DNA of 28,268 bases from an uncultured Vampirovibrionales bacterium (GCA_964643815.1 CAZXUP010000002.1:1-28268), one strand, 5' to 3'. Positions 9,897 through 28,268 are shown, numbered from the stretch's first letter. Numbers and translations are program-made. Notes: generated by a model from the letters alone, not told the origin.

Positions 9897-9899
9897 AAG

Positions 9900-11438: not shown

Positions 11439-11515
11439 TAATCTGTCTGCCTCACGTTAACGATAAAAATCAATGTTTTTGTTTTGAGATTAAGTTGTAA
11501 GACTGGAAGTACCAA

Positions 11516-12604: not shown

Positions 12605-12728
12605 ACGACCGACAACTTGCTTTACATTTGGTAATGTCTGTAAATTTCTCCATTAGAACGGTTTTTCCCTAGTTACATACTGTGCACCCAGTGTCTATAC
12701 AGGTGCTGAAACCAGGAAGGTAAAATTT

Positions 12729-13892: not shown

Positions 13893-13922
13893 ATAACCCA
13901 CTATCAGAAAGAGCGTAATACG

Positions 13923-15464
13923 GTGGAAAGCACACTTGATTACGAACGAAAGAAACTGAATTCCGGCATCTTTTATTCGACGATCAAGTATGGCGTCAAT
14001 ATTATTTCCGGCCTTGCCTACTCGGTCCTGATAGCCCGTCTATTCGGGGCCGAGTTGGTCGGAATGTTCTTTCTGCTGATGACCTTTATCGGCGTCTTCA
14101 ACATCGTCACCAATCTGGGCGAACAAGGCGGACTGGTTCGGATGGCGAACAAATACAAACAGCAGGATCAGGGCGTTACCGCGCTACTGGCCCTGTTTTT
14201 TCTCACTTCGCTCCTGTTTACGCTCATCCTCATGCTCCCCTTCGGGCTAATCGTCCAACAGTTGCTCACCAACGTCTATCACAAGCCCCACCTCATCCTG
14301 CCATTCTGGATTTTGTGCCTCAGCTACACTTTTTTCAACAACACCAGCGCCATTCTCAACAGTATTTTTGTGGCGTTTCAGGAAATGAAATACTCCCTCA
14401 TCCTGGAAGTCATTTTAACCGCCATCAAAATATTGGGCGTTCTGGCGGCTTATGTCCTTGTCGGGAAATCCGTCATGGCTGTCGTCCTCATTCAGGTCTT
14501 GATTGATTTGTCTCAACTCGTTCTGTTGCTCGCCTTTCTGGGAAAAATTATCAACCTGACGTTCACTTTTTCCACCGAATTATTCCGTCAGGCAGCACGA
14601 GACTTGAAAGAAGTGCTTCTGTTTGGACTCCGCCTGATGCCCAAAAATTACAATTACCTCATTACAGAATACATCGATCGATCCCTCATCCCGGTCTTTA
14701 TCACCAGCATTTCCCTGCTGGGCCTCTATGTGACGTCTTACCAGATTTTTTCAAAAATCGTCGCCTTTTCAGCGGTTTTTTGCAAAATGCTGTTTCCCTC
14801 GTTCTCGCGTTTAAGCCTGCAAAGCAACACCGATGACATGCTGACGCTGTATCGCGACTCCATTCAGAAATTATCGATTTTGATGGTATTTATTGTCGCC
14901 CTTGGGGCTGGCTTTGCCAAGCTCATTATGGGCGCCTTCGGGCCAGAATTTACGCAAGCCGGTGTGCTGCTGATGCTGTTGCTGCCCGGTCTTCTGGCGG
15001 AAGTCTTCAGCGTGAGTTCATCGACCTTGCTCCAGGCGCTGGATCGTCCGGGACTTGTGTCTCTCTATTCATTCGCAGGCGCCGGCGTCAACGCCCTGCT
15101 CAACATCTCGCTCATTCCGGTTCTCGGTATCGAAGGAGCCGCCTTAAGCAATACGCTGGCTCTTATTCTGATGGCCATCTGCTTTTACGCCCATGCCTGC
15201 AAAGTGGTGGGACAAAACTTATTGAACACAGACCAGGTACTGATGCAGCTCAAACTACTGGCTATCGGCGGGTTTCTGTTCCTGTTCAGCACGCTCATTC
15301 AGGAAACCCCACTACCTGTTCCGGCGCTCTGGATACCCGTCTGGGCCGTCATTCTTCTGTTTATTTATCTGATCCTGATTCATACGTTCAACATTTACAA
15401 TCTTCATCCCCTTCTTGTGAAACTACAGGAAAGAACCAAACAATGGCAACGCGCTTTACCGTAA
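13923..15464 (+). CDS. wzx: Wzx flippase (MOP/polysaccharide biosynthesis family)
   Basis: GTG start, many TMs, ARLFGAELVG, NISLIPVLGIEGAALS, position within the operon. Confidence 0.9.
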   Translation: MESTLDYERKKLNSGIFYSTIKYGVNIISGLAYSVLIARLFGAELVGMFFLLMTFIGVFNIVTNLGEQGGLVRMANKYKQQDQGVTALLALFFLTSLLFTLILMLPFGLIVQQLLTNVYHKPHLILPFWILCLSYTFFNNTSAILNSIFVAFQEMKYSLILEVILTAIKILGVLAAYVLVGKSVMAVVLIQVLIDLSQLVLLLAFLGKIINLTFTFSTELFRQAARDLKEVLLFGLRLMPKNYNYLITEYIDRSLIPVFITSISLLGLYVTSYQIFSKIVAFSAVFCKMLFPSFSRLSLQSNTDDMLTLYRDSIQKLSILMVFIVALGAGFAKLIMGAFGPEFTQAGVLLMLLLPGLLAEVFSVSSSTLLQALDRPGLVSLYSFAGAGVNALLNISLIPVLGIEGAALSNTLALILMAICFYAHACKVVGQNLLNTDQVLMQLKLLAIGGFLFLFSTLIQETPLPVPALWIPVWAVILLFIYLILIHTFNIYNLHPLLVKLQERTKQWQRALP

Positions 15465-16399
15465 TCATCTGCACCTACAACCGGGCCAGCTATCTGAATT
15501 TGTGCCTGAACGCCCTGGCGGAGCAAACCCTGCCGGGGGATGCTTATCGCCTTTTAGTAGTCGATAACAATTCCACCGACAACACGGCGCAAATTGTTCA
15601 GGCGCATCAACAGAAAAACCCACGGCTTGAATATATTTTTGAAGCCCATCAGGGATTATCCCATGCCCGTAACCGGGGCATGAGCGAATCAGACAGTGAG
15701 TACCTGTTCTTTCTGGATGATGACGCCATCCTCTCGCCGGACAGCCTGATGACCTTGCTGCAATACCTGGCGGAAAACGAAAACGTGCTGATCGTCGGAG
15801 GCCGCGCTCAAATCAAATACCTGGAAGGCAAACCGGCGTGGGTGACCCCCAAGGTGGAAGCCTGGATGGGATCGTACAACTACGGCAGCGAAGAAATCGA
15901 AGTGAACAACGCAACGATCAAACAGAAAAAAGTCCGCTTGCCTATCGGTTGCTGCTTTATCGTGAAACGTTCTTTATTGGACGAGATGGGTGGCTTCAAA
16001 CCGTCACTGGGCCGGATTGGCAAAAAAATGCTGGCAGGCGAAGAAACCCTGATTGCCCTGAAAGCGCTGGAGAAAAACGGAAAAATTGTTTACCACCCCA
16101 ATGTATACGTCGATCACATGATTGAACCACATTGGGTTGATCAGGATTTTTTGCTGAACAAAACCTACTTTTACGGCATTTCCGACATCAACGTACAATT
16201 TTTAAGCGGAAAACGCATTTCTGAAATCGTGAAATACCTCGCGTTTCGTTTGGTCTTTCTCGCAAAAAATTTGGTCGATTTAACCCTTTGCCGGATTCAA
16301 AACACACCCCAACGAGCCTTTGAAGTCAGGCTTTTGTTCAACTTCAACCGTGGCATTTATGCAGGCTTATTTAGCCGTTTGGGGTCCACCTCGCCATGA
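15443..16399 (+). CDS. GT2 family glycosyltransferase
   Basis: VIICTYNRA, VVDNNSTD, GLSHARNRG, FLDDDA, GGFKPSLGR...GEET. Overlaps wzx by 22 nt. Confidence 0.93.
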   Translation: MATRFTVIICTYNRASYLNLCLNALAEQTLPGDAYRLLVVDNNSTDNTAQIVQAHQQKNPRLEYIFEAHQGLSHARNRGMSESDSEYLFFLDDDAILSPDSLMTLLQYLAENENVLIVGGRAQIKYLEGKPAWVTPKVEAWMGSYNYGSEEIEVNNATIKQKKVRLPIGCCFIVKRSLLDEMGGFKPSLGRIGKKMLAGEETLIALKALEKNGKIVYHPNVYVDHMIEPHWVDQDFLLNKTYFYGISDINVQFLSGKRISEIVKYLAFRLVFLAKNLVDLTLCRIQNTPQRAFEVRLLFNFNRGIYAGLFSRLGSTSP

Positions 16400-17343
16400 C
16401 GCGACCGACCCTCAGTATTGGCTTATGCACCTACAACCGGGCGGATTTTCTACCCGAAGTGCTTGCCGCGCTGAAGGCTCAAACCCTGGAGCCAAGCCTG
16501 TACGAACTGGTGGTAATTGATAACAACTCGAAAGATGAGACTCGCCGGGTCGTCCAGCAATTTGCAGAAGCCAATCCGCAACTGAGGGTTCGGTATTTCT
16601 TTGAAGAGAAGCAAGGGATTTCTCACGCGCGCAACCGGGCGTATCTGGAAGCAAACAGCGACTATGTTGCTTATATTGACGACGATGAACTCGCTCAACC
16701 GGATTGGCTGGAAAGCTACCATAACGCCACTCGGGAACATCCAGGCATCGCCATCTACGCGGGCCGAATCCGCATTTTCTACCCCGGCGAAAAACCGGAC
16801 TGGGCCTCTGACTATGTCGAAAAATGGTACGGCCAATATGATTTTGGCCCCGTGCCCGTTGAAATTACGGAAGAAACCATTGCCCAGGGACAGGCCGCGT
16901 TGCCCAATGCGGGAAACATGGCGGTTCGTGTTGAGTTTCTGAAACGCATTGGCGGCTTTGATGCGAACCTGGGACGCAAGGGCAACCAGATGCTTGGCGG
17001 TGAAGAAACCAGGATTGCACTGACGGCTTTGGAGCAGGGCGAGCGGATGCTTTACTATCCGGCCTCCCTGATTGATCATGTCATTTTTCCAGAACGGTTA
17101 TCACTAGAATTTCTGAAAGAAAAACACTTTATGCAGGGACGCTCTTACAGCAAACTGTATCGCGCCGAGTTGGTCCGTCGTGGGCTTCCACGGTTGCTTG
17201 CCGGAAAAATCGTCTACTGGAGCAGATTACTGCCCGGTATTTTTAACCGGCAGCATCATACCCAACTCAAAACAAAACTACAGTTCACGTTTGAACGTGG
17301 GCTAATGGCAGGCCTTTTAGCGAGAGGTCCGCATCATGCCTGA
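16396..17343 (+). CDS. GT2 family glycosyltransferase (paralog of the preceding gene)
   Basis: IGLCTYNRA, VIDNNSKD, GISHARNRA, YIDDDE, GGFDANLGR...GEET. ATGA start/stop overlap. Confidence 0.93.
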   Translation: MTRPTLSIGLCTYNRADFLPEVLAALKAQTLEPSLYELVVIDNNSKDETRRVVQQFAEANPQLRVRYFFEEKQGISHARNRAYLEANSDYVAYIDDDELAQPDWLESYHNATREHPGIAIYAGRIRIFYPGEKPDWASDYVEKWYGQYDFGPVPVEITEETIAQGQAALPNAGNMAVRVEFLKRIGGFDANLGRKGNQMLGGEETRIALTALEQGERMLYYPASLIDHVIFPERLSLEFLKEKHFMQGRSYSKLYRAELVRRGLPRLLAGKIVYWSRLLPGIFNRQHHTQLKTKLQFTFERGLMAGLLARGPHHA

Positions 17344-18358
17344 ACCATCGCCGCTGATTAGTATCATCATGCCCGCGCACAACACAGAGACCTATATCGC
17401 GGAAGCCATTCGTTCGGTGTTGGAACAACCGGTCACTGATTTCGAACTCATCATCATCAACAACGGCTCGACGGATCAGACCAGTCAGATCGTGAAGCAG
17501 TTTGACGATCCGCGCATTCACTTGCTGGAAACCGAAAAACTCGGGCCTTCAGGCGCCAGAAATGTCGGGCTTACCCAGGTTCAGGGACGTTATGTCACGT
17601 TTTTGGACGCGGATGATGTCTATCTCCCGGAAACCCTGACATTTTTCATCAACACCTTCCAGAAACACCCCGAGCTGGATCTGATTTATGGCGGGCATGC
17701 GCTCTATTGCAACGCTGACTTGCGTCCCATCGCCAATTCAAAAAAACGTATCAAAACCAGCCAGTCGCTCGAAACATTTGCCAACCGTTTTCCGGCTGCC
17801 GCCCTCTTTGAAAATACAATGGGTTCCCAGCTATCATCCATTATGATCCGCACTGAAACAGCTCGGCAGATCGGCCTGTTTGACACAACACTGACCATTG
17901 GCGAAGACTTTGAATGGATTTTACGACTTCTAGGCGTCGCCAAAACCCGTGTTTTCCTCAATCGGTTTTCCATTTATTATCGCTGTATTTCAACCAGCCT
18001 GATGCGCTCTCCGGAAACCCTACTCAAAAGAATTGAAGGAAGCCAGAAAATCATTTCGATTATTTGTCAGCATGATTTCAAAGATATCCAAGTGAATAAA
18101 AAACGGGCTTATTATGCCGCCAGAAAATGGCTGGACCTCTGCGACAACATGCTCGGTAATGGCTATCAACCATTGGCTGTTCAAATGCTGCGTCAGTTTT
18201 ATCAAGAATCCTACTTTCCAAAGCTACCGTTTTTTATTCGACTCTGCAAACTTTCCGTGAAAATGGTTTTATCCAGTTTAAAGCTCCGACAAAACGCAAT
18301 GCCGGAAACGAACCAACCTGCATTCCGCACCAGAACATTAGCCACCAATATTGAGTGA
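17336..18358 (+). CDS. GT2 family glycosyltransferase
   Basis: SIIMPAHN...YIAEAIRSVL, NNGSTD, GPSGARNVG, FLDADD, GEDFEW. Confidence 0.92.
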   Translation: MPEPSPLISIIMPAHNTETYIAEAIRSVLEQPVTDFELIIINNGSTDQTSQIVKQFDDPRIHLLETEKLGPSGARNVGLTQVQGRYVTFLDADDVYLPETLTFFINTFQKHPELDLIYGGHALYCNADLRPIANSKKRIKTSQSLETFANRFPAAALFENTMGSQLSSIMIRTETARQIGLFDTTLTIGEDFEWILRLLGVAKTRVFLNRFSIYYRCISTSLMRSPETLLKRIEGSQKIISIICQHDFKDIQVNKKRAYYAARKWLDLCDNMLGNGYQPLAVQMLRQFYQESYFPKLPFFIRLCKLSVKMVLSSLKLRQNAMPETNQPAFRTRTLATNIE

Positions 18359-18364
18359 TCGATA

Positions 18365-19447
18365 ATGACTCAGCCGACCGATACCCCACTCATCTCCATC
18401 ATTATGCCCAGTCATAATGCGTCCAAATATATTGCCGAAACCATCGATTCGGTGCTGGCGCAAACCTGCACCAACTGGGAGCTGCTGATTTGTGATGACG
18501 GTTCGACGGACAATACCCAAGAGGTGTTGCAGCCCTATCTGGCCGATCCCCGGATTCGGTACATTCCGCTTGAAAAACAGCCTTCGGTTTACCGGGTTCG
18601 CAATATCGGGTTCTCCCATACACGCGGCGAATTCATCGCGTTTCAGGATGCGGACGATCTGTACTATCCCAACAGCCTGGAAGTGCTCGCCAACGTCCTC
18701 ATGAACAAGCCATCCATCAAGGCCGCTTATGGTTTCTACACCTGCATGGACGCCCAGGGGAACCTTGTGAGCAACCATGGCGTCAACCTGATTTTGCAAG
18801 AAGACGGCCAGTATGCAATCCCTGTCGATTCCAACCACGGTTGGAAGAGCATCATGGCGGGCCGCTGCGTTTCCGTTCTGCAAAATTGCATGCTCCGACG
18901 CAGCTTTATGGAAGCCATTGGCCCCTTCTTTGACGAAGCGACCCATTATGCCGATGTTCAGTTTATCCTGCGCATGTTCATTCAGGATATCGAAGCCATT
19001 GAAGCCGTTCCGGCGTACACGCTGCGTTATCGGCTGCACGAAAAAAGCAGCACAAAAGACCCGAATCAACTGGCGCGCATGCTGGAAAGCCGACTGAAAG
19101 TCGCCAACTGGTTGTACACGCAAAACCATCTGCCCACCGAACTGAACGGCATGAAACGATATTTTTATCTCGTCACCTATTTGAGAACGGCGCGGTTGCA
19201 GCTATTTGAATCCCGTCCGGAAAAAGTGCCCGCAATTTTTATGCTGGCATTGCGCAACCCGCGTGTATCCAAGCTGGATTGCATTGTCCAATTTACACCG
19301 TTGCTGATACTGGCCCTGGTGCCAAACACGCTGTATAAATTCCTCTTTAATACGGCAAAAGATGCCGTCAACTTGTACGGGCATCTTTTGACACGAATGA
19401 GTCAGGCTTTCAGGCAGAACTTCAAGCTTGGCGCCGACTGTTCATAA
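18365..19447 (+). CDS. GT2 family glycosyltransferase
   Basis: SIIMPSHN...YIAETIDSVLAQT, DDGSTD, RNIG, FQDADD. Confidence 0.92.
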   Translation: MTQPTDTPLISIIMPSHNASKYIAETIDSVLAQTCTNWELLICDDGSTDNTQEVLQPYLADPRIRYIPLEKQPSVYRVRNIGFSHTRGEFIAFQDADDLYYPNSLEVLANVLMNKPSIKAAYGFYTCMDAQGNLVSNHGVNLILQEDGQYAIPVDSNHGWKSIMAGRCVSVLQNCMLRRSFMEAIGPFFDEATHYADVQFILRMFIQDIEAIEAVPAYTLRYRLHEKSSTKDPNQLARMLESRLKVANWLYTQNHLPTELNGMKRYFYLVTYLRTARLQLFESRPEKVPAIFMLALRNPRVSKLDCIVQFTPLLILALVPNTLYKFLFNTAKDAVNLYGHLLTRMSQAFRQNFKLGADCS

Positions 19448-19454
19448 AGTCGGC
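19433..19454. terminator. Hairpin at the junction of the convergent GT2 and GH16 genes
   Basis: GCCGACT-N8-AGTCGGC stem overlapping the GT2 stop codon. No T tract. Confidence 0.3.
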
Positions 19455-19476
19455 AGCCTGTAGCAACTGCCTCGCC

Positions 19477-20250
19477 CTATTTATCCTCCTGATAAACACG
19501 GATATAGTCGATTTCCAGATGGTTCGGAAAGACCGTCGAGCTATCCGGATTTCCAGGCCACTTGCCGCCAACGGCCAGGTTGGCGATGAGGTACATGGGC
19601 TCGTTGGGCACATTCGTCTGGGTGCGGAAACGCTCGACGCCATCGATATAGTAAACCAGCAGATTGGGCTGCCAATGGACCCCGAAGGTATGAAACCCCT
19701 TGGAGAAGTCAGGCCCGATATAATTGCCGCCAACCTGCTTCATCACCCCATTGATTGAGGCATGAGACGTCATATAGACCTTCGTGGGCATGTGGCCCAG
19801 CGCTTCCATAATATCCACCTCCGGCGGCCATTTGCCGCTAGCCGGCAACAACCAGAAAGCAGGCCAGTATCCTTTGCCTTTCGGCAACTTGGCGCGCATT
19901 TCAAAATATCCGTATGTCTGGGAAAACTTGTTCCAGGAAGCCAACATGCCGGATGTGTATTTATAGTCATTCACCGTTTTCTTATCAGCCCGGATTCTGA
20001 CCGTGTTGCCGGTAAACTCAAAGGCATTATCCACGTACCACTGCAACTCGTTATTACTGGGCGTGGTTCGGCGCCCCCAGGGAAACGTCGTATTCCACTT
20101 GGTGGTATCCACGGCCCGGCCATTGAATTCTTCGCCAAATGTCTGCCTCCAACCACAAGGCGGGCTTCCTGCAAGCGCTATTGAGCTATTGGCCACCAGG
20201 AATACAAGAATAACCAACGCCATCAAATTCTGTTTCATAGAACGCATCAC
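19477..20250 (-). CDS. Secreted glycoside hydrolase family 16 (beta-glucanase/ExsH-like glycanase)
   Basis: N-terminal signal peptide (..ALVILVFLVANSSIALA), FSQTYGYFEMRAKLP, WPAFWLLP, catalytic E-x-D-x-x-E in WPPEVDIME, FHTFGVHW, NLAVGGKWPG, IDYIRVYQ. Confidence 0.93.
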   Translation of the reverse strand: MMRSMKQNLMALVILVFLVANSSIALAGSPPCGWRQTFGEEFNGRAVDTTKWNTTFPWGRRTTPSNNELQWYVDNAFEFTGNTVRIRADKKTVNDYKYTSGMLASWNKFSQTYGYFEMRAKLPKGKGYWPAFWLLPASGKWPPEVDIMEALGHMPTKVYMTSHASINGVMKQVGGNYIGPDFSKGFHTFGVHWQPNLLVYYIDGVERFRTQTNVPNEPMYLIANLAVGGKWPGNPDSSTVFPNHLEIDYIRVYQEDK

Positions 20251-20557
20251 TCACCTCATAGACGCCTAAGGGAATCCCGGATTTTCTTTGTTAAGCAAAG
20301 TTACAGAATCTCAAACCACTACTCAAACGACCAATCACATCGTTCTGTCTTGAGAGCTGTCTCTGGTATGAGTAGACACAGTTTAGTGCAAGCTGAGTAA
20401 AAATAACAGTATTTACATATTCAAGAAATATACAAAATACATACCGCCTGAATGCTTTACTTGTTGTTACAGAATATGAATTCTGCGCAATTTTCGGCTT
20501 TCAGGCTGCTTTTACTGATTAACATCAACGCAATCTGTCTGTCCAACAGGGAATACA

Positions 20558-21613
20558 ATGACTTCTTCTCGAGAGCAATGGCTTGATATTATGAAAGGCT
20601 TGGCCATCCTGCTGGTGGTCATCGGACATATGTTGCGTGGGTTTACCGCCGCAGGCTTGCACCCGGAATCTCAAGACTATTTTGACTATATCGATTTTAC
20701 AATCTACAACTTTCATATGCCGCTCTTCTTCATGCTTAGCGGCTATCTGTATTCGCGTAATGAGCAATTGAATACGTTGGCCGCATATCCGGACTTTGTT
20801 TTAAAGAAGCTGGTCCGCCTTGGCATTCCGTACATTATTTTCTCCCTCATTCAAGGCTCCATTCGACTTTGCATGAGCGGTCATACCAATCAGGCTATCA
20901 CTGGCAGCACTTTGCTCTCCATTTGGTATGAGCCTTTTGATCAATTCTGGTTCCTTTACGCATTGTTCATCATTTTCCTGATCGTCCCGCTGTTGGAACG
21001 ATTGGTTAAAAATACCCCATTCATTTTCCTGAGCCTGTTACTGCTGGAAATCACAGCGCCGCTCATCCGCACCGAGATCCCGATGATCGATCTGTTTGTA
21101 GCGAATGTTTTTTATTTTTACTGTGGCAGCCTTCTCCTGCGTGTGTCCGGCGGGCAGCCCTTCCAAACGCCTGTATTAATTGGCGGCTCAATGCTCTACC
21201 TGTTTTTCAACCTGCTGTTCTACAGCCGTCCCAACGTCCCCTGGATTCTGTCCGAACTGCTTGCCCCGAGCTTCCTGGCAAGCACGGGCATCATCTTCAG
21301 CCTAACCGTCACCCGGTTTTTACTGCTGAAAGTGAATGCACTCAAAACGCTGTTCAATTGGCTTGGATTGTACTCGTTTGAAATATTCCTGATTCATTCG
21401 ATGGTATCCGCCTCGGCGCGCATTGCGCTCAGCAAAATATTCCACACCGATGACTTGATGTTGCATGTCATCTTCGGCCTCGGACTTGGCATCCTCATCC
21501 CCATTCTCGTAAGCCTGGCTGCCAAGAAGTGGCCCCCGCTTGAATTTACGTTTTACCCCGGTAAATACATTCGCTTCAGAAAAAAGCAGGTCTCACCGGC
21601 TCTGGGTACCTAA
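20558..21613 (+). CDS. Acyltransferase family 3 (second O-acyltransferase)
   Basis: REQWLDIMKGLAILLVVIGH, FHMPLFFMLSG, RLGIPY, FWFLYALF, SFEIFLIH. Confidence 0.92.
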   Translation: MTSSREQWLDIMKGLAILLVVIGHMLRGFTAAGLHPESQDYFDYIDFTIYNFHMPLFFMLSGYLYSRNEQLNTLAAYPDFVLKKLVRLGIPYIIFSLIQGSIRLCMSGHTNQAITGSTLLSIWYEPFDQFWFLYALFIIFLIVPLLERLVKNTPFIFLSLLLLEITAPLIRTEIPMIDLFVANVFYFYCGSLLLRVSGGQPFQTPVLIGGSMLYLFFNLLFYSRPNVPWILSELLAPSFLASTGIIFSLTVTRFLLLKVNALKTLFNWLGLYSFEIFLIHSMVSASARIALSKIFHTDDLMLHVIFGLGLGILIPILVSLAAKKWPPLEFTFYPGKYIRFRKKQVSPALGT

Positions 21614-22549: not shown

Positions 22550-23176
22550 CTACGGGTGCGGCTTTTCAGCGCCACTCATCATGTGCTGAGCCATCATGAT
22601 ACCGGCGGTACCGACCAGGGCGCCGCCCATAAAGCTGCAAACCGCGGTGGAAGCCAGCATGGTGCCGCCCATTGCGAGCGCCGCCGGTGCGTTATCTCGT
22701 AGAATGCCGCCCATTTGCTGAACCGCCTGCCTGGCGCCCGTTCCCATATCACGCATGATTTGCATCATGGGTTGAGGGCTTTGAAGCGCGGAAGTCGCAT
22801 ATTGCATGACTGGTAGCTGCATTACTGGCGGTCGCATAGCCATATAGCCCGCGTTACCACTGTTGATGCCATTCCACATACTGCCAAACAGTCCGGCGGA
22901 AGCCTGCCCCAAACCAGTCAAGGCAGATTGGCCGAACGAAAACATATTTCCGGCAAATTGGGTCATCGGGGCCATCCAGTTGCCCCATCCCGCACTCGGA
23001 GCAGGCGCCTGTGAAAATAAAGTCATTTGAGGCTGAGCGCCATAACCATAAGAAGCTTGCACGCCATACGAGGAAGGCAGCATGTTTTGCGCAAGCGGGG
23101 TTATCGAATACGCCGCAGGCTGTTGCATCATCGTGTATTGGGGTCTGTACGCAAAAACACTATTCAGCATCATCAT
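22550..23176 (-). CDS. Hypothetical low-complexity Met/Gln/Gly/Ser/Ala-rich protein (~208 aa) with a hydrophobic Gly-rich C-terminus
   Basis: ORF track gives 22550-23224. AGAGGA Shine-Dalgarno precedes ATG ATG ATG at 23176, suggesting this start. Long open frame with strongly biased composition. Confidence 0.7.
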   Translation of the reverse strand: MMMLNSVFAYRPQYTMMQQPAAYSITPLAQNMLPSSYGVQASYGYGAQPQMTLFSQAPAPSAGWGNWMAPMTQFAGNMFSFGQSALTGLGQASAGLFGSMWNGINSGNAGYMAMRPPVMQLPVMQYATSALQSPQPMMQIMRDMGTGARQAVQQMGGILRDNAPAALAMGGTMLASTAVCSFMGGALVGTAGIMMAQHMMSGAEKPHP

Positions 23177-23347
23177 GCAATTCCTCTGCTCTATTGCTTG
23201 CCTAAAGGCAGACCCTTTGAACACATCACAGGGTAATCAGCCTATTTAATATCATTCTGATATATAAAATAAGGCTTCCAGAAGTCATAAATTGCCTATA
23301 ATATTACAAATACGTTACATTAATTCCAATCCAGCAAGGACGTAAGC

Positions 23348-23902
23348 TCAGTATTGCAAGCCTCTTTGGCGAATTCCCCGGGCAAGACCCGGAATCATTT
23401 TGCTTTTAAACGTCTGAATCATATCGATTTCCTCACTGGACAAGCCTCCCGGATGAGATGAAGGCATCTTTCTCACCCTGGGAAACGGTTTACTGCTGAC
23501 AACCCCATGAAGTCGCCGTCGGTTGGCCTCCGCCTGGCAAACAGGGATTTTATAAGCAAAGGCATCCGCCGCAACATGAAAATCCTCCAGCACAATCGCC
23601 AGCCGTTCAGCCCGTTCTTCCAGTCCGGTTGTTTCACACAGCTTTTTAGCGACCCGGATGGCCAGATTCAAGCGAACCCAATAGGCAACCCCCGGATGCC
23701 GCAAGCCTTCCATCATCGCCAGCCGCACATGATGCCCCGAGAAGGCTGGCTGGCTCCCCTCATTTCCCCGGGGAGCCAGGCGGTAAATTTTGAGAAACGA
23801 GCAACGGCTATCGGCATCCATCGCTTCCAGGATTGCCAGAAAGCGTTGCGCTCGTCTGTTTTTACCCGCCTGGCTTGTCATCCCCTTCCTCACTCTCTTC
23901 AT
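23348..23902 (-). CDS. Hypothetical protein, probably co-transcribed with the flavodoxin
   Basis: 184-codon ORF starting 6 nt after the flavodoxin stop (TAA TGAAGG ATG). No recognisable motif. Confidence 0.55.
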   Translation of the reverse strand: MKRVRKGMTSQAGKNRRAQRFLAILEAMDADSRCSFLKIYRLAPRGNEGSQPAFSGHHVRLAMMEGLRHPGVAYWVRLNLAIRVAKKLCETTGLEERAERLAIVLEDFHVAADAFAYKIPVCQAEANRRRLHGVVSSKPFPRVRKMPSSHPGGLSSEEIDMIQTFKSKMIPGLARGIRQRGLQY

Positions 23903-23908
23903 CCTTCA

Positions 23909-24373
23909 TTAAGCGCTAATGGGCTGTTGCAGACCCAGTGCATTGATAACCCCCTGCAGCCACTGATCGGAAGCCGCGTCATACTCCCAATCGCATTCCT
24001 GCATCGGAAAAACACGCTTTGCGCCCTGGCTTTCCAACGCTTCGTCAAAGTCCTTGCCGCACTTGCAAAAGGCCGGGTACGACGTATCGCCCAATGCACA
24101 GACACTAAAAGAGACGCCGCTGAGATCGACTTTCTGGGTTTGCAACTCACCCAGCAGATCGTAGGCGTTGGACGGCGGGTCCCCATCGCCCCAGGTGCTG
24201 GTGACAATCAAGACCCGGCTGTAGTTTGCCAACTGCGCCAGTTTGATATCGGCCATATCAATCGACTGAGCCTGAAAGCCCTGCGCCTTCAGTTTCACTT
24301 CAGCCATATCCGCCACACCCTGGGCATTGCCGGTTTCAGAACCCCATAGAATCGCAATCGTATCACTTGCCAT
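23909..24373 (-). CDS. Short-chain flavodoxin (MioC/CysJ-flavodoxin-domain type)
   Basis: WGSETGNAQ (FMN phosphate loop), TSTWGDGDPP, ALGDTSYPAFC. AGAGGA Shine-Dalgarno. Confidence 0.95.
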   Translation of the reverse strand: MASDTIAILWGSETGNAQGVADMAEVKLKAQGFQAQSIDMADIKLAQLANYSRVLIVTSTWGDGDPPSNAYDLLGELQTQKVDLSGVSFSVCALGDTSYPAFCKCGKDFDEALESQGAKRVFPMQECDWEYDAASDQWLQGVINALGLQQPISA

Positions 24374-24463
24374 CTGTTTGTTCCTCTTTCGTGTTCAATG
24401 TCATAAAAAAGCCGCGGCCGCCGCATGCACAGCCACACTGATATCCAAAAGACAATTCGAAGA

Positions 24464-24522
24464 ATAGCCTATTGAGAATTATTATCAATTGCCAGTATAG
24501 CCTATTGAGAATATTTATCAAT
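24464..24522. promoter_or_regulatory. Two tandem Fur-box-like operators within 26-bp direct repeats (33-bp period)
   Basis: ATAGCCTATTGAGAATTATTATCAAT (24464-24489) and ATAGCCTATTGAGAATATTTATCAAT (24497-24522), 24/26 identical. Cores TGAGAAT-T-ATTATCA and TGAGAAT-A-TTTATCA differ by 1 and 2 bases from the 7-1-7 Fur consensus TGATAAT-N-ATTATCA. Confidence 0.75.
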
Positions 24523-24639
24523 AAGCTTTCTCAAAGAACATCATTTTTTCCTCTGAACACAGTAGAGCACCCTCTCTCGAATCGAACTCAACGATTCAAA
24601 TAGTTCGCTGTATGATGAATGGGAGAGGAGGATGATTTT

Positions 24640-25752
24640 GTGCAGACGATTTCCAAAACAATTCACCCCAGGGAGTACGATGACGTAAAAACCGTGGTGG
24701 AAAACGTGCAGAAGGGGAACCTGCAACACGCCAAAGCGCTGTTACAACAATTAAACGCCACCGCATCCAATCGGGATTCCGCCGCCGCCATCCAGCAGGC
24801 CTTTTTTGTAAACGCGCTTGCCAAAAGGGTTTCGGAACCTTCCGTTGAAAGCCAGAACCTCTATTTGCAAGGCGATGAGGGGCAGCAAATCAAAATGTTC
24901 AATTTCATGGCCGAAAAGTTTCCGGTTGTGAAAGCCGCACAGGAAATCGCCAACCAGGTTCTGGTTTCCCAACTCAAACAAAACCACCCCAATCAAAGCC
25001 TGACGATTTTGGACATTGGCATCGGCACCGGCCAGCAAATGATCAGTCTGCTCGAAACCATTCATCGGGAAACCGATTTTGCACGACCGATTACCATTAT
25101 TGGCATTGAACCTGCCGCAGACAGCCTGGAATTGGCCGAGAAGCGCATTAGCGGATTGAATGCGCAAGCACCGGCGCCCATCACCTTTAAAGGCATCCAC
25201 AAAACCTTTGAAGCCGTGGATGAAAACGACTGGGCCACAATCCGGCAAACCGTCGAAGAAACAGGCAGCCGGATTTACATCAACGCCTCGTTCGCCTTGC
25301 ATCATATTCAACCCGTCAGCTTGCGCGAAACATTGTTCTCCCGTCTTAAAAGCTTTAATCCGCTGGCGTTTACGCTCATCGAACCCTATGCGGATTATAT
25401 CAACCCGGATTTGCAAACCCGCTTCAACAATGCCTGGCACCATTACGGATTAACCTTTAAGGCCATTGATTCGATTGATGCGCCGACGGAAGATAAAAAT
25501 GCCGTCAAGAGAATTTTCTTTGGCCGGGAAATCCAGGATGTGCTGGCCCACGATCAGCTTCGGGTTGAGCAGTTTGAAACCGCCGAGATGTGGCTTGAAA
25601 AACTGCAAAAAGCCGGTTTTACCCCTATCGATCTGAACGCCGGAACAACCACCCAAAACGCGTATCCGCTCATCAGCATCAGCCAACGCTCCCATTATCT
25701 GGGCCTGGATGTTGAAGGCTATCCGATTGTGGCGGTGCTGTCGGTTCAGTAG
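24640..25752 (+). CDS. Bacterial GRAS-domain protein (Rossmann-fold SAM methyltransferase-like); GTG start at 24640 preferred over ATG at 24619
   Basis: P-x-x-K-x-A-x-x-x-ANQ (PVVKAAQEIANQ), VHIID-equivalent LTILDIGIGTGQQ, ITIIGIE, INASFALHHI, PFYRE-like PLAFTLIEPYAD...RFNNAWHHYGLTFKAID, SAW-like RVEQFETAEMWLEKLQKAGF. GAGGAGG Shine-Dalgarno lies ~7 nt before the GTG. Confidence 0.88.
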   Translation: MQTISKTIHPREYDDVKTVVENVQKGNLQHAKALLQQLNATASNRDSAAAIQQAFFVNALAKRVSEPSVESQNLYLQGDEGQQIKMFNFMAEKFPVVKAAQEIANQVLVSQLKQNHPNQSLTILDIGIGTGQQMISLLETIHRETDFARPITIIGIEPAADSLELAEKRISGLNAQAPAPITFKGIHKTFEAVDENDWATIRQTVEETGSRIYINASFALHHIQPVSLRETLFSRLKSFNPLAFTLIEPYADYINPDLQTRFNNAWHHYGLTFKAIDSIDAPTEDKNAVKRIFFGREIQDVLAHDQLRVEQFETAEMWLEKLQKAGFTPIDLNAGTTTQNAYPLISISQRSHYLGLDVEGYPIVAVLSVQ

Positions 25753-27264
25753 TCAGAAAGGCATATTTGCGCAGGCCCGTTTCCAATCCGCGCGATAGGC
25801 TGCGGGCAGTTTGCCAAACCATCGCAAAAACGCGCCCGGTGCAATCAATTCGTAGACGGCATCCAGCGGCTTAACCTCTGTCACACTCACACGCTTTTGC
25901 ACATGCCATGGCCGAAGCGCGTTGGGATGCTCCAACCCGGCAATGGCCAGCAGTTCGTAAAACTCCTGCGTGGTAATGGCATGATAGTGATAGGCTTTTT
26001 GGGCGGTTCCATCAATATCCAGCAGATTGGCATAATGGCTGTCCTGCGTCGCAATGCCTTTCAGGCAGGTTCCTTTATAGCATTCCAGTTGCTGATCGCA
26101 TCCGATTGACAGCAACATTCCCCGCGCCGTCGAACACACATCCGCGCCTCTGGCCAGCTTGGAGATCATGTCTTTTTCCGTAAACACACGACCGGACACG
26201 ATAATCTTGATGGCATCCCGCAAGTTGCAACCCACCAATGCGTTGTGCACAAAGACAATCGCGTCATTGAGCGGCGTGCCGGTAAAACCCGAAGCCCCTT
26301 TAGAGGCCGCCGCGGTTCCCGCCTCCATGCCGTCAATGGTAATAAAGTCCATCACAATGCCTGTTTTGAGCATGGCCTTGCAAATGGCCAGAAAATAATG
26401 ACGATGGCTGATTCCCAGTTTAATGCCGATGGGCTTGCCGTCACTCCGTTCGCGTAGCTCCCGAATAAAATCCAGCAATTCGATGGGCGTGGCAAAACAC
26501 GTGTGTCGGTCTTTCAACACGGCCTCATCCGCGTCTTGAATCCCCATCATATTGGCAATGGCAGGCAGCATGCCCTTAGCAGGCAAAATCTTACAAGGTT
26601 CTACCCCCTGGGAAAGCTTCACTTCGATCATTTTGACGTTTGGGATACGCACCTTCTTTTGAAACGCAACGGGATCGAAATCGCCGTTCTCGTCCCGACA
26701 ACCAAAATAACCGGTTCCCAACTGCCAAACCACATCACCCGCCCGGTTGGATTCCGGGTAACGTCCATCGACCAAATCCTCCAAAAAAGCACCAAAGTTG
26801 AAAGAGGGGTCTCCCATATCCACGTCCGTACCAAAATGATAGGTGCTGATGCCCGCCTCCCCCGTGTTCTGGAAAAAACCTCCCAGAAACGCGGCTTTGT
26901 TCAGCGCCAGAATCGCGTTTCTGGACAAGGGGCCAAAGCTGAGGGCCGAACAGTTTAAAACCGAAGCATTGTACGGTTGCTTACAATCCGGCCCGCCGAT
27001 ACGAACCTTGGGCAAATCTTTGGGCAGGGGCTTTTTAAAGTAGGCCGGTAACAGAGATTCGTACCCAACCGCCTCCACATCCGCTTCCGAACCAAACACC
27101 TCGGGCAACCGAAGACCGGATGCCCGCTCCCCGATCAGCCGGGCCGTGCTTTCCGGAACAGGCCCCTTCCTGCTCGTCTTGATTGGCGGAACACTATAAA
27201 AGCCGCCAGGAATCAAACTACCCAGCGTGGAGACACCTATGATCTTATTCCGCACATCTGTCAC
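25753..27264 (-). CDS. Stand-alone FMN-binding glutamate-synthase-family (Glu_synthase TIM barrel, Fe-S) protein
   Basis: LNCSALSFG, NTGEAG, VWQLGTGYFGCR, MIEVKLSQG, KPIGIKL, DFITIDGMEAGT, three-Cys cluster GCDQQLECYKGTCLKGIATQD. No glutamine amidotransferase domain. Confidence 0.88.
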   Translation of the reverse strand: MTDVRNKIIGVSTLGSLIPGGFYSVPPIKTSRKGPVPESTARLIGERASGLRLPEVFGSEADVEAVGYESLLPAYFKKPLPKDLPKVRIGGPDCKQPYNASVLNCSALSFGPLSRNAILALNKAAFLGGFFQNTGEAGISTYHFGTDVDMGDPSFNFGAFLEDLVDGRYPESNRAGDVVWQLGTGYFGCRDENGDFDPVAFQKKVRIPNVKMIEVKLSQGVEPCKILPAKGMLPAIANMMGIQDADEAVLKDRHTCFATPIELLDFIRELRERSDGKPIGIKLGISHRHYFLAICKAMLKTGIVMDFITIDGMEAGTAAASKGASGFTGTPLNDAIVFVHNALVGCNLRDAIKIIVSGRVFTEKDMISKLARGADVCSTARGMLLSIGCDQQLECYKGTCLKGIATQDSHYANLLDIDGTAQKAYHYHAITTQEFYELLAIAGLEHPNALRPWHVQKRVSVTEVKPLDAVYELIAPGAFLRWFGKLPAAYRADWKRACANMPF

Positions 27265-27320
27265 TATACGCGTCTCATCTCTCCATCTTTATCAGGATGA
27301 GGCAGAATGCGAAACACAGC

Positions 27321-27340
27321 AATAGGACTTTAGTCCTATT
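27321..27340. promoter_or_regulatory. Perfect 8-4-8 inverted repeat between the kinase and the FMN enzyme genes (operator or terminator)
   Basis: AATAGGAC-TTTA-GTCCTATT, adjacent to a T run on the + strand, 57 nt upstream of the glutamate-synthase-like start codon. Confidence 0.5.
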
Positions 27341-27342
27341 TT

Positions 27343-28268
27343 TTATATAGACAATTCGAACTCCGGCTTGAAGGGAACTTGCCGTACCGTACTCCAATCC
27401 AGCGGGATCGAAATGGTAAATATGCTTCCTGCGCCAGGAGTAGACTGGATTGAGAGCACCCCGTTGTGAAGTTCGATGATCTTCTTGGCCAGAGAAAGCC
27501 CCAGGCCTGTTCCTTTCATATAGTTCGAGTGCTCTTGCCGACCTTGTTCAAAAGGCTCCAGTATCCTGTCCAGGTCCTCCTCGGGAATCCCAATCCCCTC
27601 ATCCATCACGGCAAAGCAGTACTGTGCGCCTTTGGGATAGCAATGCAGCGTAATCAGGCTGCCCTCGGATGAAAACTTGTGCGCATTGGACAACAGGTTA
27701 CACAATGCCTGTTTCAGGCGTAGAAAGTCTCCCCGAAAGCTTCTGGGGCTATCCGGATCGATAATGACTTGCAAGGTTTGCTTTCTTTGACACAGCAACG
27801 GCTCTACCAGGGCAACCGCCTGCTCGGACAACTCGCTAATCGGAACCATGTCAAAGACCAGCTTGAATTTCCCGGCCTCTATCTTGGAAACATCCAGCAA
27901 TTCATCAATAATTTGCAACAAGTGCCGCCCGCTGGCATGAATGAGCGAAAAATACTCTCTCAGCTTGTCGTCCAAAGGCCCCAGCATGCCATCCAACGCA
28001 ATATTGGAGCCGGTAATAATCGTGTGCAATGGCGTTCTCAATTCATGCGACATGCTGGTCAGAAAATTGCTCTTTTTGCGATTGGCCGTTTCCGCCATAT
28101 TTTTGGCCGCCCGCAAGTCCTCTTCCATCTTCTTCCGCTCGGTAATATCCCGAATCAACCCCAACACCCCCTGGATATTGCCCCCCACGTCTTTATACGT
28201 GGACTTGACCGCCAGATACGTTCTTTGCCGGCCATCCACCGTCGTCAACGTGTCCTCGACCGAACTGG
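27343..28268 (-). CDS. PAS/PAC-containing sensor histidine kinase, 3' part only (start lies beyond the right edge)
   Basis: PAC end GVLGLIRDITERKKME, H-box MSHELRTPL, LDVSKIEAG, N-box NLLSNAHKF, G1 DEGIGIP, G2 GTGLGLSL. The frame stays open to 28268 (SSVEDTLTTVDG..). Confidence 0.95.
   Translation of the reverse strand, partial: SSVEDTLTTVDGRQRTYLAVKSTYKDVGGNIQGVLGLIRDITERKKMEEDLRAAKNMAETANRKKSNFLTSMSHELRTPLHTIITGSNIALDGMLGPLDDKLREYFSLIHASGRHLLQIIDELLDVSKIEAGKFKLVFDMVPISELSEQAVALVEPLLCQRKQTLQVIIDPDSPRSFRGDFLRLKQALCNLLSNAHKFSSEGSLITLHCYPKGAQYCFAVMDEGIGIPEEDLDRILEPFEQGRQEHSNYMKGTGLGLSLAKKIIELHNGVLSIQSTPGAGSIFTISIPLDWSTVRQVPFKPEFELSI

What the first reader, a model, noticed from the sequence alone, without database searches (positions are those of the whole stretch)
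23348..28268. Candidate iron-responsive small-molecule synthesis/signalling module: flavodoxin + GRAS methyltransferase + atypical FMN/Fe-S oxidoreductase + PAS kinase
Seen in the sequence: a flavodoxin and a GRAS-domain gene diverge from two Fur-box-like repeats; the GRAS stop abuts (0 bp) the stop of a stand-alone Glu_synthase-fold gene with an altered substrate loop; that gene follows a PAS histidine kinase on the same strand. Established: flavodoxins replace ferredoxin under iron limitation, GltB-type FMN/[3Fe-4S] barrels take electrons from ferredoxin or GltD (no gltD in the window), and bacterial GRAS domains are predicted small-molecule methylases. Inference: flavodoxin feeds electrons to the FMN enzyme, which together with the GRAS methylase makes or modifies an unknown metabolite sensed by the kinase. 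I recall GRAS genes lying near glutamate-synthase-like and kinase genes in other bacteria but cannot verify this here.
Basis: partly seen in the sequence, partly recalled or inferred. Interest (0 to 1): 0.8.

Follow-up and report, generated by a model that had tools for sequence, protein, structure and literature searches.

The report
GRAS methylase, flavoenzyme, kinase cassette
An uncultured Vampirovibrionales bacterium carries a conserved gene set (a plant-GRAS-like methyltransferase, a remodelled glutamate-synthase-like flavoenzyme and a sensor kinase) that probably makes a methylated keto or amino acid, whereas the iron-regulated flavodoxin next to it is only a neighbour.

Summary
All four genes, the 0-bp stop-to-stop junction, the altered Glu_synthase loop and two Fur boxes are present.

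GRAS and the stand-alone Glu_synthase-fold gene are adjacent in 13 of 14 Vampirovibrionia loci, two of them as an operon. A PAS kinase lies nearby in 12 of 14 and DUF3291 in 11 of 14. Contig C131 continues the window and supplies the kinase N-terminus, a NarL-type regulator, DUF3291 and an aromatic O-methyltransferase.

The flavodoxin is linked in this genome only (1 of 14). Paired Fur boxes, flavodoxin and orf184 recur as a separate unit elsewhere in two relatives, and both boxes overlap promoters facing the flavodoxin. The boxes are genuine: the same 15-mer precedes feoB and similar sites flank fur.

In other phyla the Glu_synthase partner is replaced by:
- a HisC-like aminotransferase (Bacteroidota, about 29 of 31 loci);
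- a ScyB-like tryptophan dehydrogenase (two cyanobacteria);
- a D-2-hydroxyacid dehydrogenase (one Paenibacillus).

The shared chemistry is a 2-oxo acid. I therefore propose that GRAS methylates a 2-oxo acid or its amino acid, and that the flavoenzyme, which has lost the conserved Lys and Arg motif residues, aminates or deaminates it. The substrate, the product and iron control of GRAS are untested.

The parts
24640..25752 (+). GRAS-family class I SAM methyltransferase, 370 aa from GTG 24640 (an upstream ATG at 24619 would give 377 aa). Core gene of the cassette.
25753..27264 (-). Soluble stand-alone Glu_synthase-fold FMN/[3Fe-4S] protein (503 aa) with remodelled active-site motifs. Conserved partner of GRAS in Vampirovibrionia.
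   Evidence: PF01645 E 4.7e-54. The Cys triad GCDQQLECYKGTC aligns with the GltB CX5CX4C cluster motif. Lys to Glu with a 2-residue deletion in the GAKPG loop, Arg to Met/Leu, and GGTGA to AGTAA in all 10 GRAS-linked orthologs but not in the paralogs. Adjacent to GRAS in 13/14 loci.
27343..28268 (-). C-terminal two thirds of a REC-PAS-HisKA-HATPase histidine kinase. The N-terminus lies on contig C131:1-615(-).
   Evidence: Pfam. 8-nt contig overlap, an unbroken reading frame and homology continuity with the G013 kinase. Reciprocal best hit of the kinases beside the pair in G004 and G013.
27321..27340 (.). Perfect 8-bp-stem hairpin between the kinase stop and the GltS-like start. Possible terminator or processing site.
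   Evidence: A consensus match only.
24473..24520 (.). Two Fur boxes (24473-24487 and 24506-24520), each inside a roughly 30-nt direct repeat. They belong to the flavodoxin promoter and are not shown to control GRAS.
   Evidence: The identical 15-mer lies upstream of feoB, and two sites flank the fur start in the same genome. Paired boxes occur upstream of the flavodoxin orthologs in G021 and G022. Both overlap minus-strand -35 hexamers.
23909..24373 (-). Short-chain flavodoxin (CysJ-FMN/MioC-like). An adjacent, independent iron-stress unit, not a conserved part of the cassette.
   Evidence: PF00258 E 6e-31. NCBIfam. Orthologs in 20/41 relatives, none of the listed matches on the GRAS contig.
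23348..23902 (-). orf184, a conserved hypothetical gene downstream of the flavodoxin in the same operon. Part of the flavodoxin unit.
   Evidence: No Pfam or NCBIfam hit. Homologs at 42-46% identity lie directly downstream of the flavodoxin in G021 and G022. The protein atlas gave no lead.

Best explanation
The window holds one end of a Vampirovibrionia-specific small-molecule pathway cassette that sits beside a two-component system.

Core (shown by comparative genomics): a GRAS-family SAM methyltransferase, a soluble FMN/[3Fe-4S] protein derived from membrane-anchored glutamate-synthase-like paralogs, DUF3291, and a cytoplasmic REC-PAS histidine kinase. A NarL-type regulator, an aromatic-type O-methyltransferase and a VOC/glyoxalase protein are frequent accessories. 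In this genome the regulator, DUF3291 and the O-methyltransferase lie on contig C131.

Inferred mechanism: GRAS methylates a 2-oxo acid, most likely at C3 and probably one with a neutral or aromatic side chain, or else the cognate amino acid. The FMN/[3Fe-4S] enzyme interconverts that 2-oxo acid and its amino acid by reductive amination with ammonia and a low-potential donor, or the reverse. In other phyla the same step falls to an aminotransferase, a tryptophan-dehydrogenase-like enzyme or a 2-hydroxyacid dehydrogenase. DUF3291 and the O-methyltransferase tailor the product further.

The two-component system most simply controls expression of the cassette; sensing of the product is possible but not shown.

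The Fur boxes, flavodoxin and orf184 form a separate iron-stress operon that happens to abut GRAS here. The flavodoxin could still act as a general electron donor.
For: Linkage:
- The GltS-like ortholog occurs in exactly the genomes that have GRAS (10 of 11 GRAS-bearing genomes among 41 relatives) and is always adjacent.
- In 14 unique loci: GltS-like 13, DUF3291 11, kinase 12, O-methyltransferase 5, VOC 4.
- Two deep-branching loci have GltS-like then GRAS on one strand, 21 nt apart or overlapping.
- 31 of about 56 subfamily representatives list the same longest-contig length as a GRAS representative, which I take to mean they share a contig.

Partner replacement:
- Bacteroidota: GRAS followed by a HisC-like aminotransferase in 29 of 31 loci, often overlapping.
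- Leptothoe and a Leptolyngbyaceae MAG: GRAS followed by a ScyB-like tryptophan dehydrogenase (527 bits) with unrelated flanks.
- Paenibacillus: GRAS followed by a D-2-hydroxyacid dehydrogenase 5 nt downstream.
- One melainabacterial MAG also has AlaDH directly upstream.

Enzyme features:
- The SAM motif is intact.
- The Cys triad is kept while the conserved Lys and Arg motif positions are replaced clade-wide.
- The C131 O-methyltransferase matches aromatic natural-product O-methyltransferases.
- SAM C-methyltransferase plus aminotransferase pairs acting on 2-oxo acids are an established route (PMC4742848, PMC10502145).

Fur and flavodoxin independence.
Against: - No biochemical data exist for any bacterial GRAS protein.
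- About 30 of 66 GRAS loci with enough flanking sequence (Gemmatimonadota, Myxococcota, Nostocales, Proteobacteria) have no 2-oxo-acid enzyme nearby.
- The partner associations amount to roughly four independent events, two of them small.
- Most Vampirovibrionia pairs are convergent, not operonic.
- The assignment of the lost Lys and Arg to 2-oxoglutarate binding rests on my recollection of the GltS literature, not on a check made here.
Confidence: 0.55

Rival explanations
1. First reader's model. An iron-responsive module in which Fur co-regulates flavodoxin and GRAS, the flavodoxin is the dedicated electron donor of the FMN/[3Fe-4S] enzyme, and the kinase senses the product.
For: - The genes are adjacent here, and GRAS and the flavodoxin share a 245-nt intergenic region holding two genuine Fur boxes.
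- GltS-type FMN/[3Fe-4S] domains take electrons from low-potential carriers (PMC8097209).
- No GltD-like gene is nearby; the only one in the assembly is on C148.
- One relative (G004) has a 2-mismatch Fur-like site between its kinase and GltS-like genes.
Against: - Flavodoxin is linked in 1 of 14 loci.
- The closest flavodoxin orthologs keep paired Fur boxes and orf184 on other contigs, with co-directional upstream genes.
- Both boxes overlap -35 hexamers of promoters pointing at the flavodoxin, and no plus-strand promoter-like site was found.
- 8 of 10 relatives have no Fur-like site near GRAS/GltS.
Confidence: 0.12
2. GRAS is an amino-acid or amine N-methyltransferase, like EgtD or histamine N-methyltransferase. 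The neighbouring aminotransferase, dehydrogenase or GltS-like enzyme merely supplies the amino acid, giving an N-methyl amino acid or a betaine.
For: - The best non-GRAS structural matches by Z are histamine N-methyltransferase (17.3) and EgtD (17.0).
- Three of the four partner types make amino acids.
Against: - The Paenibacillus partner is a 2-hydroxyacid dehydrogenase, which handles 2-oxo and 2-hydroxy acids, not amines.
- The Z plateau is flat, with SgvM and MppJ at 16.2.
- Foldseek ranks SgvM and MppJ first among non-GRAS hits.
Confidence: 0.18
3. GRAS works in signalling rather than metabolism. It would be a protein methyltransferase or a ligand-binding adaptor acting on the adjacent two-component system, foreshadowing the regulatory role of plant GRAS. 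The FMN/Fe-S protein would be a redox or nitrogen sensor input.
For: - Kinases or regulators of different families flank GRAS in Vampirovibrionia, Bacteroidota (Y_Y_Y kinase plus LytTR), an OmpR/HAMP lineage, Nostocales and Methanoperedens.
- Two-component domains are about twice as dense within 4.5 kb of GRAS as further out.
Against: - The enrichment is modest, and 61 of 80 loci have no two-component gene within 3 kb.
- Tight, often overlapping operons with metabolic enzymes and the accessory O-methyltransferase, VOC and DUF3291 genes look biosynthetic.
- TerB fusions and stand-alone copies need no kinase.
Confidence: 0.1
4. The adjacency has no functional meaning. It reflects inherited synteny within one clade.
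For: Most pairs are convergent, and the loci come from related genomes, so they are not independent.
Against: - GRAS proteins of the clade are only 32-46% identical, yet adjacency survives rearrangements between convergent and co-directional forms.
- The kinase moves between sides and flanking genes differ.
- The phyletic patterns of GRAS and the GltS-like ortholog match in 40 of 41 genomes.
Confidence: 0.05

Closest known systems
SAM-dependent 2-oxo-acid C3-methyltransferases working with an aminotransferase (StnQ1/StnR and MarI/MarG for beta-methyltryptophan; MppJ, SgvM, GlmT, MrsA; PMC4742848, PMC10502145)
   Same: - Gene pairing of a SAM methyltransferase with an enzyme that interconverts an amino acid and its 2-oxo acid.
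- A two-domain build, with a helical N-terminal cap on a Rossmann core.
- Foldseek ranks SgvM and MppJ directly after plant GRAS.
- Bacterial GRAS has invariant His residues that could play the part of the His244/His296 pair that binds the metal in SgvM.
   Different: - A different sequence family: PF03514, not Methyltransf_2 or a UbiE-like family.
- Here the aminating partner is an FMN/[3Fe-4S] protein, which is not known for any such pathway.
- Metal binding and the substrate are untested.
Bacterial GRAS domain proteins predicted to be small-molecule methylases (Zhang, Iyer and Aravind 2012, Bioinformatics 28:2407; cited from memory, full text not held)
   Same: The same family, with SAM-binding residues intact. 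This protein is a clear member.
   Different: That work, as I recall it, proposed gibberellin-like substrates and gave no substrate class from gene context. Here the context points to 2-oxo and amino acids and to a clade-specific FMN/Fe-S partner.
Synthase (FMN/[3Fe-4S]) domain of the glutamate synthase large subunit GltB and of Fd-GOGAT (PDB 1EA0, 1OFD, 7MFM; PMC8097209)
   Same: PF01645 barrel, conserved CX5CX4C cluster motif and FMN-barrel motifs.
   Different: - Stand-alone, with no amidotransferase, central or GXGXG domains and no adjacent GltD.
- The GAKPGEGG loop, the conserved Arg, and the SPP-H and GGTGA motifs are replaced in the whole GRAS-linked clade.
- No canonical GltB was found in this 94%-complete assembly.
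Fur-repressed flavodoxin operons (cyanobacterial isiB; Bacillus subtilis ykuNOP; from general knowledge)
   Same: A flavodoxin behind near-consensus 7-1-7 Fur boxes that overlap its promoter. The same box lies at feoB and fur.
   Different: The boxes are duplicated in tandem at a 33-nt period, and the operon carries an unknown 184-aa partner gene.

Membership tests
GRAS domain family (PF03514), class I SAM methyltransferase fold | Significant match to the family profile over most of the domain | tested here: met
   E 8.4e-40, residues 25-348 against profile positions 7-338 of 374.
GRAS domain family (PF03514), class I SAM methyltransferase fold | GRAS fold: helical cap plus alpha/beta core, as in the plant structures | tested here: met
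GRAS domain family (PF03514), class I SAM methyltransferase fold | Intact SAM-binding motif I (D/E-x-G-x-G-x-G) and an acidic residue at the end of strand 2 | tested here: met
   D125, G127 and G129 are invariant, G131 is nearly invariant, and the GIEP motif (P158 invariant; E157 invariant in the 16-sequence alignment) is conserved. SAM binding itself was not assayed.
2-oxo-acid C-methyltransferases (SgvM/MppJ/MarI/GlmT type) | Genomic pairing with an enzyme that interconverts an amino acid and its 2-oxo acid | tested here: met
   Aminotransferase, ScyB-like dehydrogenase, 2-hydroxyacid dehydrogenase or GltS-like enzyme next to GRAS in four lineages. Absent in about 30 other loci.
2-oxo-acid C-methyltransferases (SgvM/MppJ/MarI/GlmT type) | Membership of the same sequence family, or a specific structural neighbourhood | tested here: not met
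2-oxo-acid C-methyltransferases (SgvM/MppJ/MarI/GlmT type) | Metal site (a His pair) that binds and enolises the keto acid | tested here: inconclusive
   H221, H222 and H268 are invariant in 58 homologs. Their position relative to the SAM pocket could not be measured because no coordinates were available.
2-oxo-acid C-methyltransferases (SgvM/MppJ/MarI/GlmT type) | Methyl transfer to C3 of a 2-oxo acid | not testable with these tools
   Needs an enzyme assay.
Glutamate synthase (GltB synthase domain) | PF01645 barrel with the [3Fe-4S] Cys triad | tested here: met
Glutamate synthase (GltB synthase domain) | Canonical substrate-site motifs: the GAKPGEGG Lys, the conserved Arg, and SPPxH | tested here: not met
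   Lys replaced by Glu or Ala with a 2-residue deletion, Arg replaced by Met or Leu, and SPP lost in all 10 GRAS-linked orthologs. Paralogs keep them.
Glutamate synthase (GltB synthase domain) | Amidotransferase domain, or a partner GltD or ferredoxin-docking context | tested here: not met
   The protein has a single domain. The genome gives only a marginal GATase_2 hit, and its one GltD-like gene is unlinked on C148.
Fur regulon | Fur box consensus, recurring at iron genes of the same genome | tested here: met
   (feoB and fur itself).
Fur regulon | Box placed to control GRAS or the GltS-like gene, and conserved in relatives | tested here: not met
   The boxes overlap flavodoxin-directed promoter-like sites. 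No Fur-like site near GRAS/GltS in 8 of 10 relatives, and only 2-mismatch sites in the other two. The boxes travel with the flavodoxin.
Two-component system | Kinase with HisKA and HATPase domains plus a cognate receiver and output regulator nearby | tested here: met
   The kinase spans the window and C131. The REC+GerE regulator is at C131:840-1451.

The most novel reading that the evidence does not exclude
Bacterial GRAS proteins are an unrecognised family of 2-oxo-acid methyltransferases, probably acting on arylpyruvate or indolepyruvate. The Vampirovibrionia cassette would then make a methylated, aromatic amino-acid-derived signal or secondary metabolite. That cassette comprises GRAS, a glutamate-synthase-derived FMN/[3Fe-4S] aminating reductase with a rebuilt substrate site, DUF3291 and an aromatic O-methyltransferase, sitting beside a REC-PAS kinase and NarL regulator that would control it. 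This would give the first substrate class for the bacterial ancestors of plant GRAS/DELLA regulators, and a new reaction for the glutamate synthase fold.
Probability: 0.25. Interest if true: 0.8.

Novelty: new variant of a known kind. Interest (0 to 1): 0.6.

Why it matters
- **An open substrate question.** Plant GRAS/DELLA regulators descend from bacterial methyltransferases whose substrates have been unknown since the family was recognised in 2012. I found no paper characterising a bacterial member.
- **A concrete, cheap test.** The gene contexts point to 2-oxo acids and their amino acids, with indole-3-pyruvate and arylpyruvates as first candidates. Simple two-gene units are available for expression: GRAS plus aminotransferase, and GRAS plus a ScyB-like dehydrogenase.
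- **A possible new enzyme.** The work defines a soluble glutamate-synthase-fold subfamily of about 56 cluster representatives that keeps FMN and the [3Fe-4S] ligands but has lost the conserved Lys and Arg motif residues. This is probably a new low-potential amino-acid/2-oxo-acid oxidoreductase.
- **A caution on reading adjacency.** The attractive iron link turned out to be a neighbour effect.

Tried and rejected
- **Co-folding of GRAS with the GltS-like protein.** The verdict was "no support, and no evidence against". It is not used either way.
- **Structural neighbours as a substrate clue.** Foldseek put SgvM and MppJ right after plant GRAS. Rescoring gave a flat Z plateau shared with N-methyltransferases and cap methyltransferases, so I do not count it as support.
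- **Rfam scan and folding of the flavodoxin leader with its terminator-like hairpin.** No family matched and the z-score was -1.8, so no riboswitch or sRNA claim is made.
- **Protein atlas for orf184 and PDB search for DUF3291.** Neither gave a lead.
- **Reading Zhang et al. 2012.** The paper is not held, so its content is cited from memory only.
- **Looking up GltS active-site residue roles.** Only the general mechanism was found, so the residue roles stay unverified.
- **Sequencing runs.** Only DNA metagenomes hold the window, so no expression evidence exists.
- **Scytonemin-cluster reading of the cyanobacterial GRAS/ScyB-like pair.** Rejected, because no scyA- or scyC-like neighbours are present.
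- **Glu_synthase linkage as a general property of bacterial GRAS.** Rejected, with 0 of 73 non-Vampirovibrionia loci showing it.

Full report
**1. What is in the window**

The window is contig C2 of a 2.8-Mb, 388-contig assembly that is 94% complete. The nearest named relatives of its proteins are Vampirovibrio and Melainabacteria MAGs.

Gene calling and Pfam/NCBIfam scans give:
- orf184, 23348-23902(-), with no family match;
- a short flavodoxin, 23909-24373(-);
- a GRAS-family protein, 24640-25752(+);
- a single-domain Glu_synthase (PF01645) protein, 25753-27264(-);
- a PAS-HisKA-HATPase kinase, 27343-28266(-), which runs off the contig.

The two stop codons at 25750-25755 abut with no base between them.

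The 245-nt flavodoxin/GRAS spacer holds two 7-1-7 Fur-box matches, each inside a roughly 30-nt direct repeat. They are the only two matches in the window, against 0.06 expected by chance. The rest of the window, 7.6-21.6 kb, is an exopolysaccharide cluster.

**2. The Fur boxes are real but belong to the flavodoxin**

Genome-wide the pattern occurs 13 times, against 4 for the reversed control. The identical 15-mer lies upstream of feoB, and two sites flank the start of a fur gene.

In the window each box overlaps the -35 hexamer (TTGATA) of a minus-strand promoter-like site that points at the flavodoxin. No plus-strand site was found for GRAS.

Flavodoxin orthologs occur in 20 of 41 relatives, and none of the listed matches lies on the GRAS contig. 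The two closest orthologs, in G021 and G022, keep an orf184 homolog directly downstream. They also keep a pair of Fur boxes about 30 nt apart upstream, on contigs other than the GRAS contig and behind co-directional genes.

Within about 10 kb of GRAS/GltS, 8 of 10 relatives have no Fur-like site. The two that do have only 2-mismatch sites: G004 has one in the kinase/GltS spacer and one inside GRAS, and G031 has one about 1.3 kb from the GltS-like start.

So the Fur boxes, flavodoxin and orf184 form an independent iron-stress operon.

**3. GRAS and the Glu_synthase-fold gene form a conserved pair**

GRAS is present in 11 of 41 relatives. The full-length ortholog of the PF01645 protein (at least 47% identity) is present in 10 of them and in no genome without GRAS. 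It is always next to GRAS.

Adding four metagenomic contigs gives 14 unique loci:

| Gene near GRAS | Loci |
|---|---|
| GltS-like, adjacent | 13/14 |
| PAS kinase within about 4 kb | 12/14 |
| DUF3291 | 11/14 |
| NarL-type regulator or stand-alone receiver | about 6/14 |
| Aromatic-type O-methyltransferase | 5/14 |
| VOC/glyoxalase | 4/14 |
| Flavodoxin | 1/14 |

Eleven pairs are convergent. The two deepest-branching pairs (G004 and G013) read GltS-like then GRAS on one strand, 21 nt apart or overlapping.

Among about 56 cluster representatives of this GltS-like subfamily, 31 list the same longest-contig length as a GRAS representative, which I take to mean they share a contig.

The kinases of G004 and G013 are reciprocal best hits of the window kinase. 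Other loci use non-orthologous PAS kinases, and the genome has roughly 30 kinases, so chance proximity is unlikely.

**4. The cassette continues on contig C131**

The end of C2 and the start of C131 share 8 nt. The kinase reading frame runs straight across the junction. The G013 kinase aligns to C131 up to residue 205 and to the window from residue 204.

C131 then encodes:
- the REC-like and PAS N-terminus of the kinase;
- a REC+GerE regulator (840-1451, +);
- DUF3291 (1569-2111, +);
- a Methyltransf_2 O-methyltransferase (2089-3138, -).

The closest solved relatives of the O-methyltransferase are aromatic natural-product O-methyltransferases such as CalO6, MmcR and COMT. This order matches G004 and G013.

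**5. The FMN protein is not a glutamate synthase**

It aligns with the GltB synthase domain and keeps the CX5CX4C [3Fe-4S] motif. I compared it with paralogs from the same and related genomes, which keep the canonical motifs and carry an N-terminal membrane segment. All ten GRAS-linked orthologs differ from those paralogs in the same ways:
- they are soluble;
- KLSQGAKPGHGGILP becomes KLSQGVEPxKx--(M/L)P, so the Lys is lost and two residues are deleted;
- the conserved Arg in IAxIR becomes Met or Leu;
- the SPP of the SPPxH motif is lost (the His is kept), and GGTGA becomes AGTAA.

As I recall the GltS literature, that Lys and Arg hold the two carboxylates of 2-oxoglutarate. I could not verify this here.

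The assembly has no canonical GltB, and its one GltD-like gene is unlinked.

**6. What GRAS sits beside in other phyla**

A scan of one genome per species returned 80 GRAS loci. No Glu_synthase-like gene lies within 10 kb of GRAS outside Vampirovibrionia.

A maximum-likelihood tree gives three well-supported clades.
- **Vampirovibrionia clade.** 10 of 11 rows have the GltS-like neighbour.
- **Bacteroidota clade.** GRAS is followed by a HisC-family class I/II aminotransferase in 29 of 31 loci, usually immediately and often overlapping. About 13 of these loci also have a Y_Y_Y/His_kinase sensor and a LytTR regulator.
- **Mixed clade.** Two cyanobacteria have GRAS followed by an ELFV dehydrogenase that scores 527 bits on the tryptophan dehydrogenase ScyB model. 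Their flanks are unrelated and no scytonemin genes are present. One Paenibacillus has a D-2-hydroxyacid dehydrogenase 5 nt downstream.

One melainabacterial MAG adds an alanine dehydrogenase directly upstream of GRAS.

About 30 loci (Gemmatimonadota, Myxococcota, Nostocales, Proteobacteria) show no such partner.

The four partner types are unrelated in sequence and share only one chemical species, a 2-oxo acid. SAM C-methyltransferases that methylate 2-oxo acids and work with an aminotransferase are an established route to beta-methyl amino acids (PMC4742848, PMC10502145).

**7. Structure**

Bacterial GRAS proteins share invariant His221, His222, His268, Glu248 and Asp277. SgvM binds its keto acid through a zinc held by two His residues. 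I could not map the GRAS residues in space.

**8. Two-component link**

Kinase or regulator genes of different families lie beside GRAS in several lineages: Vampirovibrionia, Bacteroidota, an OmpR/HAMP lineage where regulator, kinase and GRAS share a strand, Nostocales and Methanoperedens.

Across the 80 loci, two-component domains are about twice as dense within 4.5 kb of GRAS as at 4.5-9 kb. Only 19 loci have one within 3 kb.

The simplest reading is transcriptional control of the cassette. Product sensing is possible but untested.

**9. Verdict**

*Shown:*
- the genes, the junction and the Fur boxes;
- the conserved set of GRAS, GltS-like, DUF3291 and kinase genes;
- the clade-wide remodelling of the FMN enzyme;
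- the independence of the flavodoxin/Fur unit.

*Inferred, with my probability for each:*
- 2-oxo-acid or amino-acid chemistry: about 0.55;
- C3-methylation specifically: about 0.3;
- an aromatic substrate: about 0.25;
- regulation by the adjacent two-component system.

Co-folding of the two proteins gave no usable verdict. No expression data exist. Earlier notes of this scan report GRAS-like genes beside an aminotransferase in a Fibrobacterales cluster and after dapA in another genome. I did not test those notes.

Noticed in passing
window 24413-24437 (-), in the flavodoxin 5' leader: A terminator-like GC-rich hairpin followed by a T-run lies between the two Fur-overlapped promoter-like sites and the flavodoxin start. 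It could be an attenuator or the end of a short Fur-controlled RNA of about 50-80 nt. Rfam found nothing and the fold z-score is only -1.8.
   Followed up: partly
window 23348-23902 (-); L104:1999-2544; L105:873-1469: orf184 is an Arg-rich 184-aa protein with no Pfam, NCBIfam or atlas match. It is conserved directly downstream of the Fur-regulated flavodoxin in at least two relatives, so it is probably an unknown iron-stress protein. In G021 a further 141-aa ORF sits between the boxes and the flavodoxin.
   Followed up: partly
G000 contig C131:1-3138 (locus L133): C131 joins the window's right end through an 8-nt overlap and a continuous kinase reading frame. It carries the rest of the cassette: the kinase N-terminus, a REC+GerE regulator, DUF3291 and an aromatic-type O-methyltransferase. 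Beyond these lie glycosyltransferases and a CmcI-like methyltransferase.
   Followed up: yes
G000 contigs C57:12119-12133 and C48:4480-4591: The same Fur box lies upstream of feoB, and two boxes flank the start of a fur gene, which implies autoregulation. This gives a first sketch of the Fur regulon of this uncultured lineage.
   Followed up: partly
G000 contig C117:5834-7612 (locus L120): A second stand-alone PF01645 protein of 592 aa has an N-terminal membrane segment and canonical GAKPGHGG, Arg and SPP-H motifs. This type is widespread in relatives without GRAS. A third type carries the insertion that the GRAS-linked clade also has (query residues 147-174) and looks like that clade's ancestor.
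   Followed up: partly
Loci L053-L099 (Bacteroidota), for example L064, L068, L072, L074, L075, L081: A recurrent four-gene unit: a Y_Y_Y/His_kinase sensor, a LytTR regulator, GRAS and a HisC-like aminotransferase, plus small conserved ORFs with no Pfam match (clusters c7, c9, c11).
   Followed up: partly
Loci L035, L036, L044, L046, L087 (Gemmatimonadota): A PaaA/PaaC-like di-iron oxygenase subunit gene lies 1-4 kb upstream of GRAS. An unknown protein of about 257 aa with no Pfam match (cluster c6) lies downstream in 7 loci. This may be another aromatic-compound context.
   Followed up: no
Proteins P0063, P0068, P0083, P0088, P0094, P0099, P0102: Metagenomic GRAS proteins fused to an N-terminal TerB domain (PF05099).
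   Followed up: no
Locus L029 (Candidatus Methanoperedens): A GRAS homolog in an archaeon, flanked on both sides by histidine kinases. This is likely a horizontal transfer.
   Followed up: no
Locus L022 (DATNPJ010000038.1): The record is labelled Coleofasciculaceae cyanobacterium. However, it is the same contig as G015, which is placed in the window's own family, and its GRAS and GltS-like proteins group inside the Vampirovibrionia clade. The taxonomic label may be wrong.
   Followed up: partly
window 22550-23224 (-): A 224-aa ORF with no family match. I did not examine it.
   Followed up: no
window 7659-21613: An exopolysaccharide cluster: Wzz-like, Wzy_C, Poly_export/SLBB, flippase, four GT2 glycosyltransferases, two Acyl_transf_3 proteins and a GH16 glycosidase. 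It is unrelated to the finding.
   Followed up: partly
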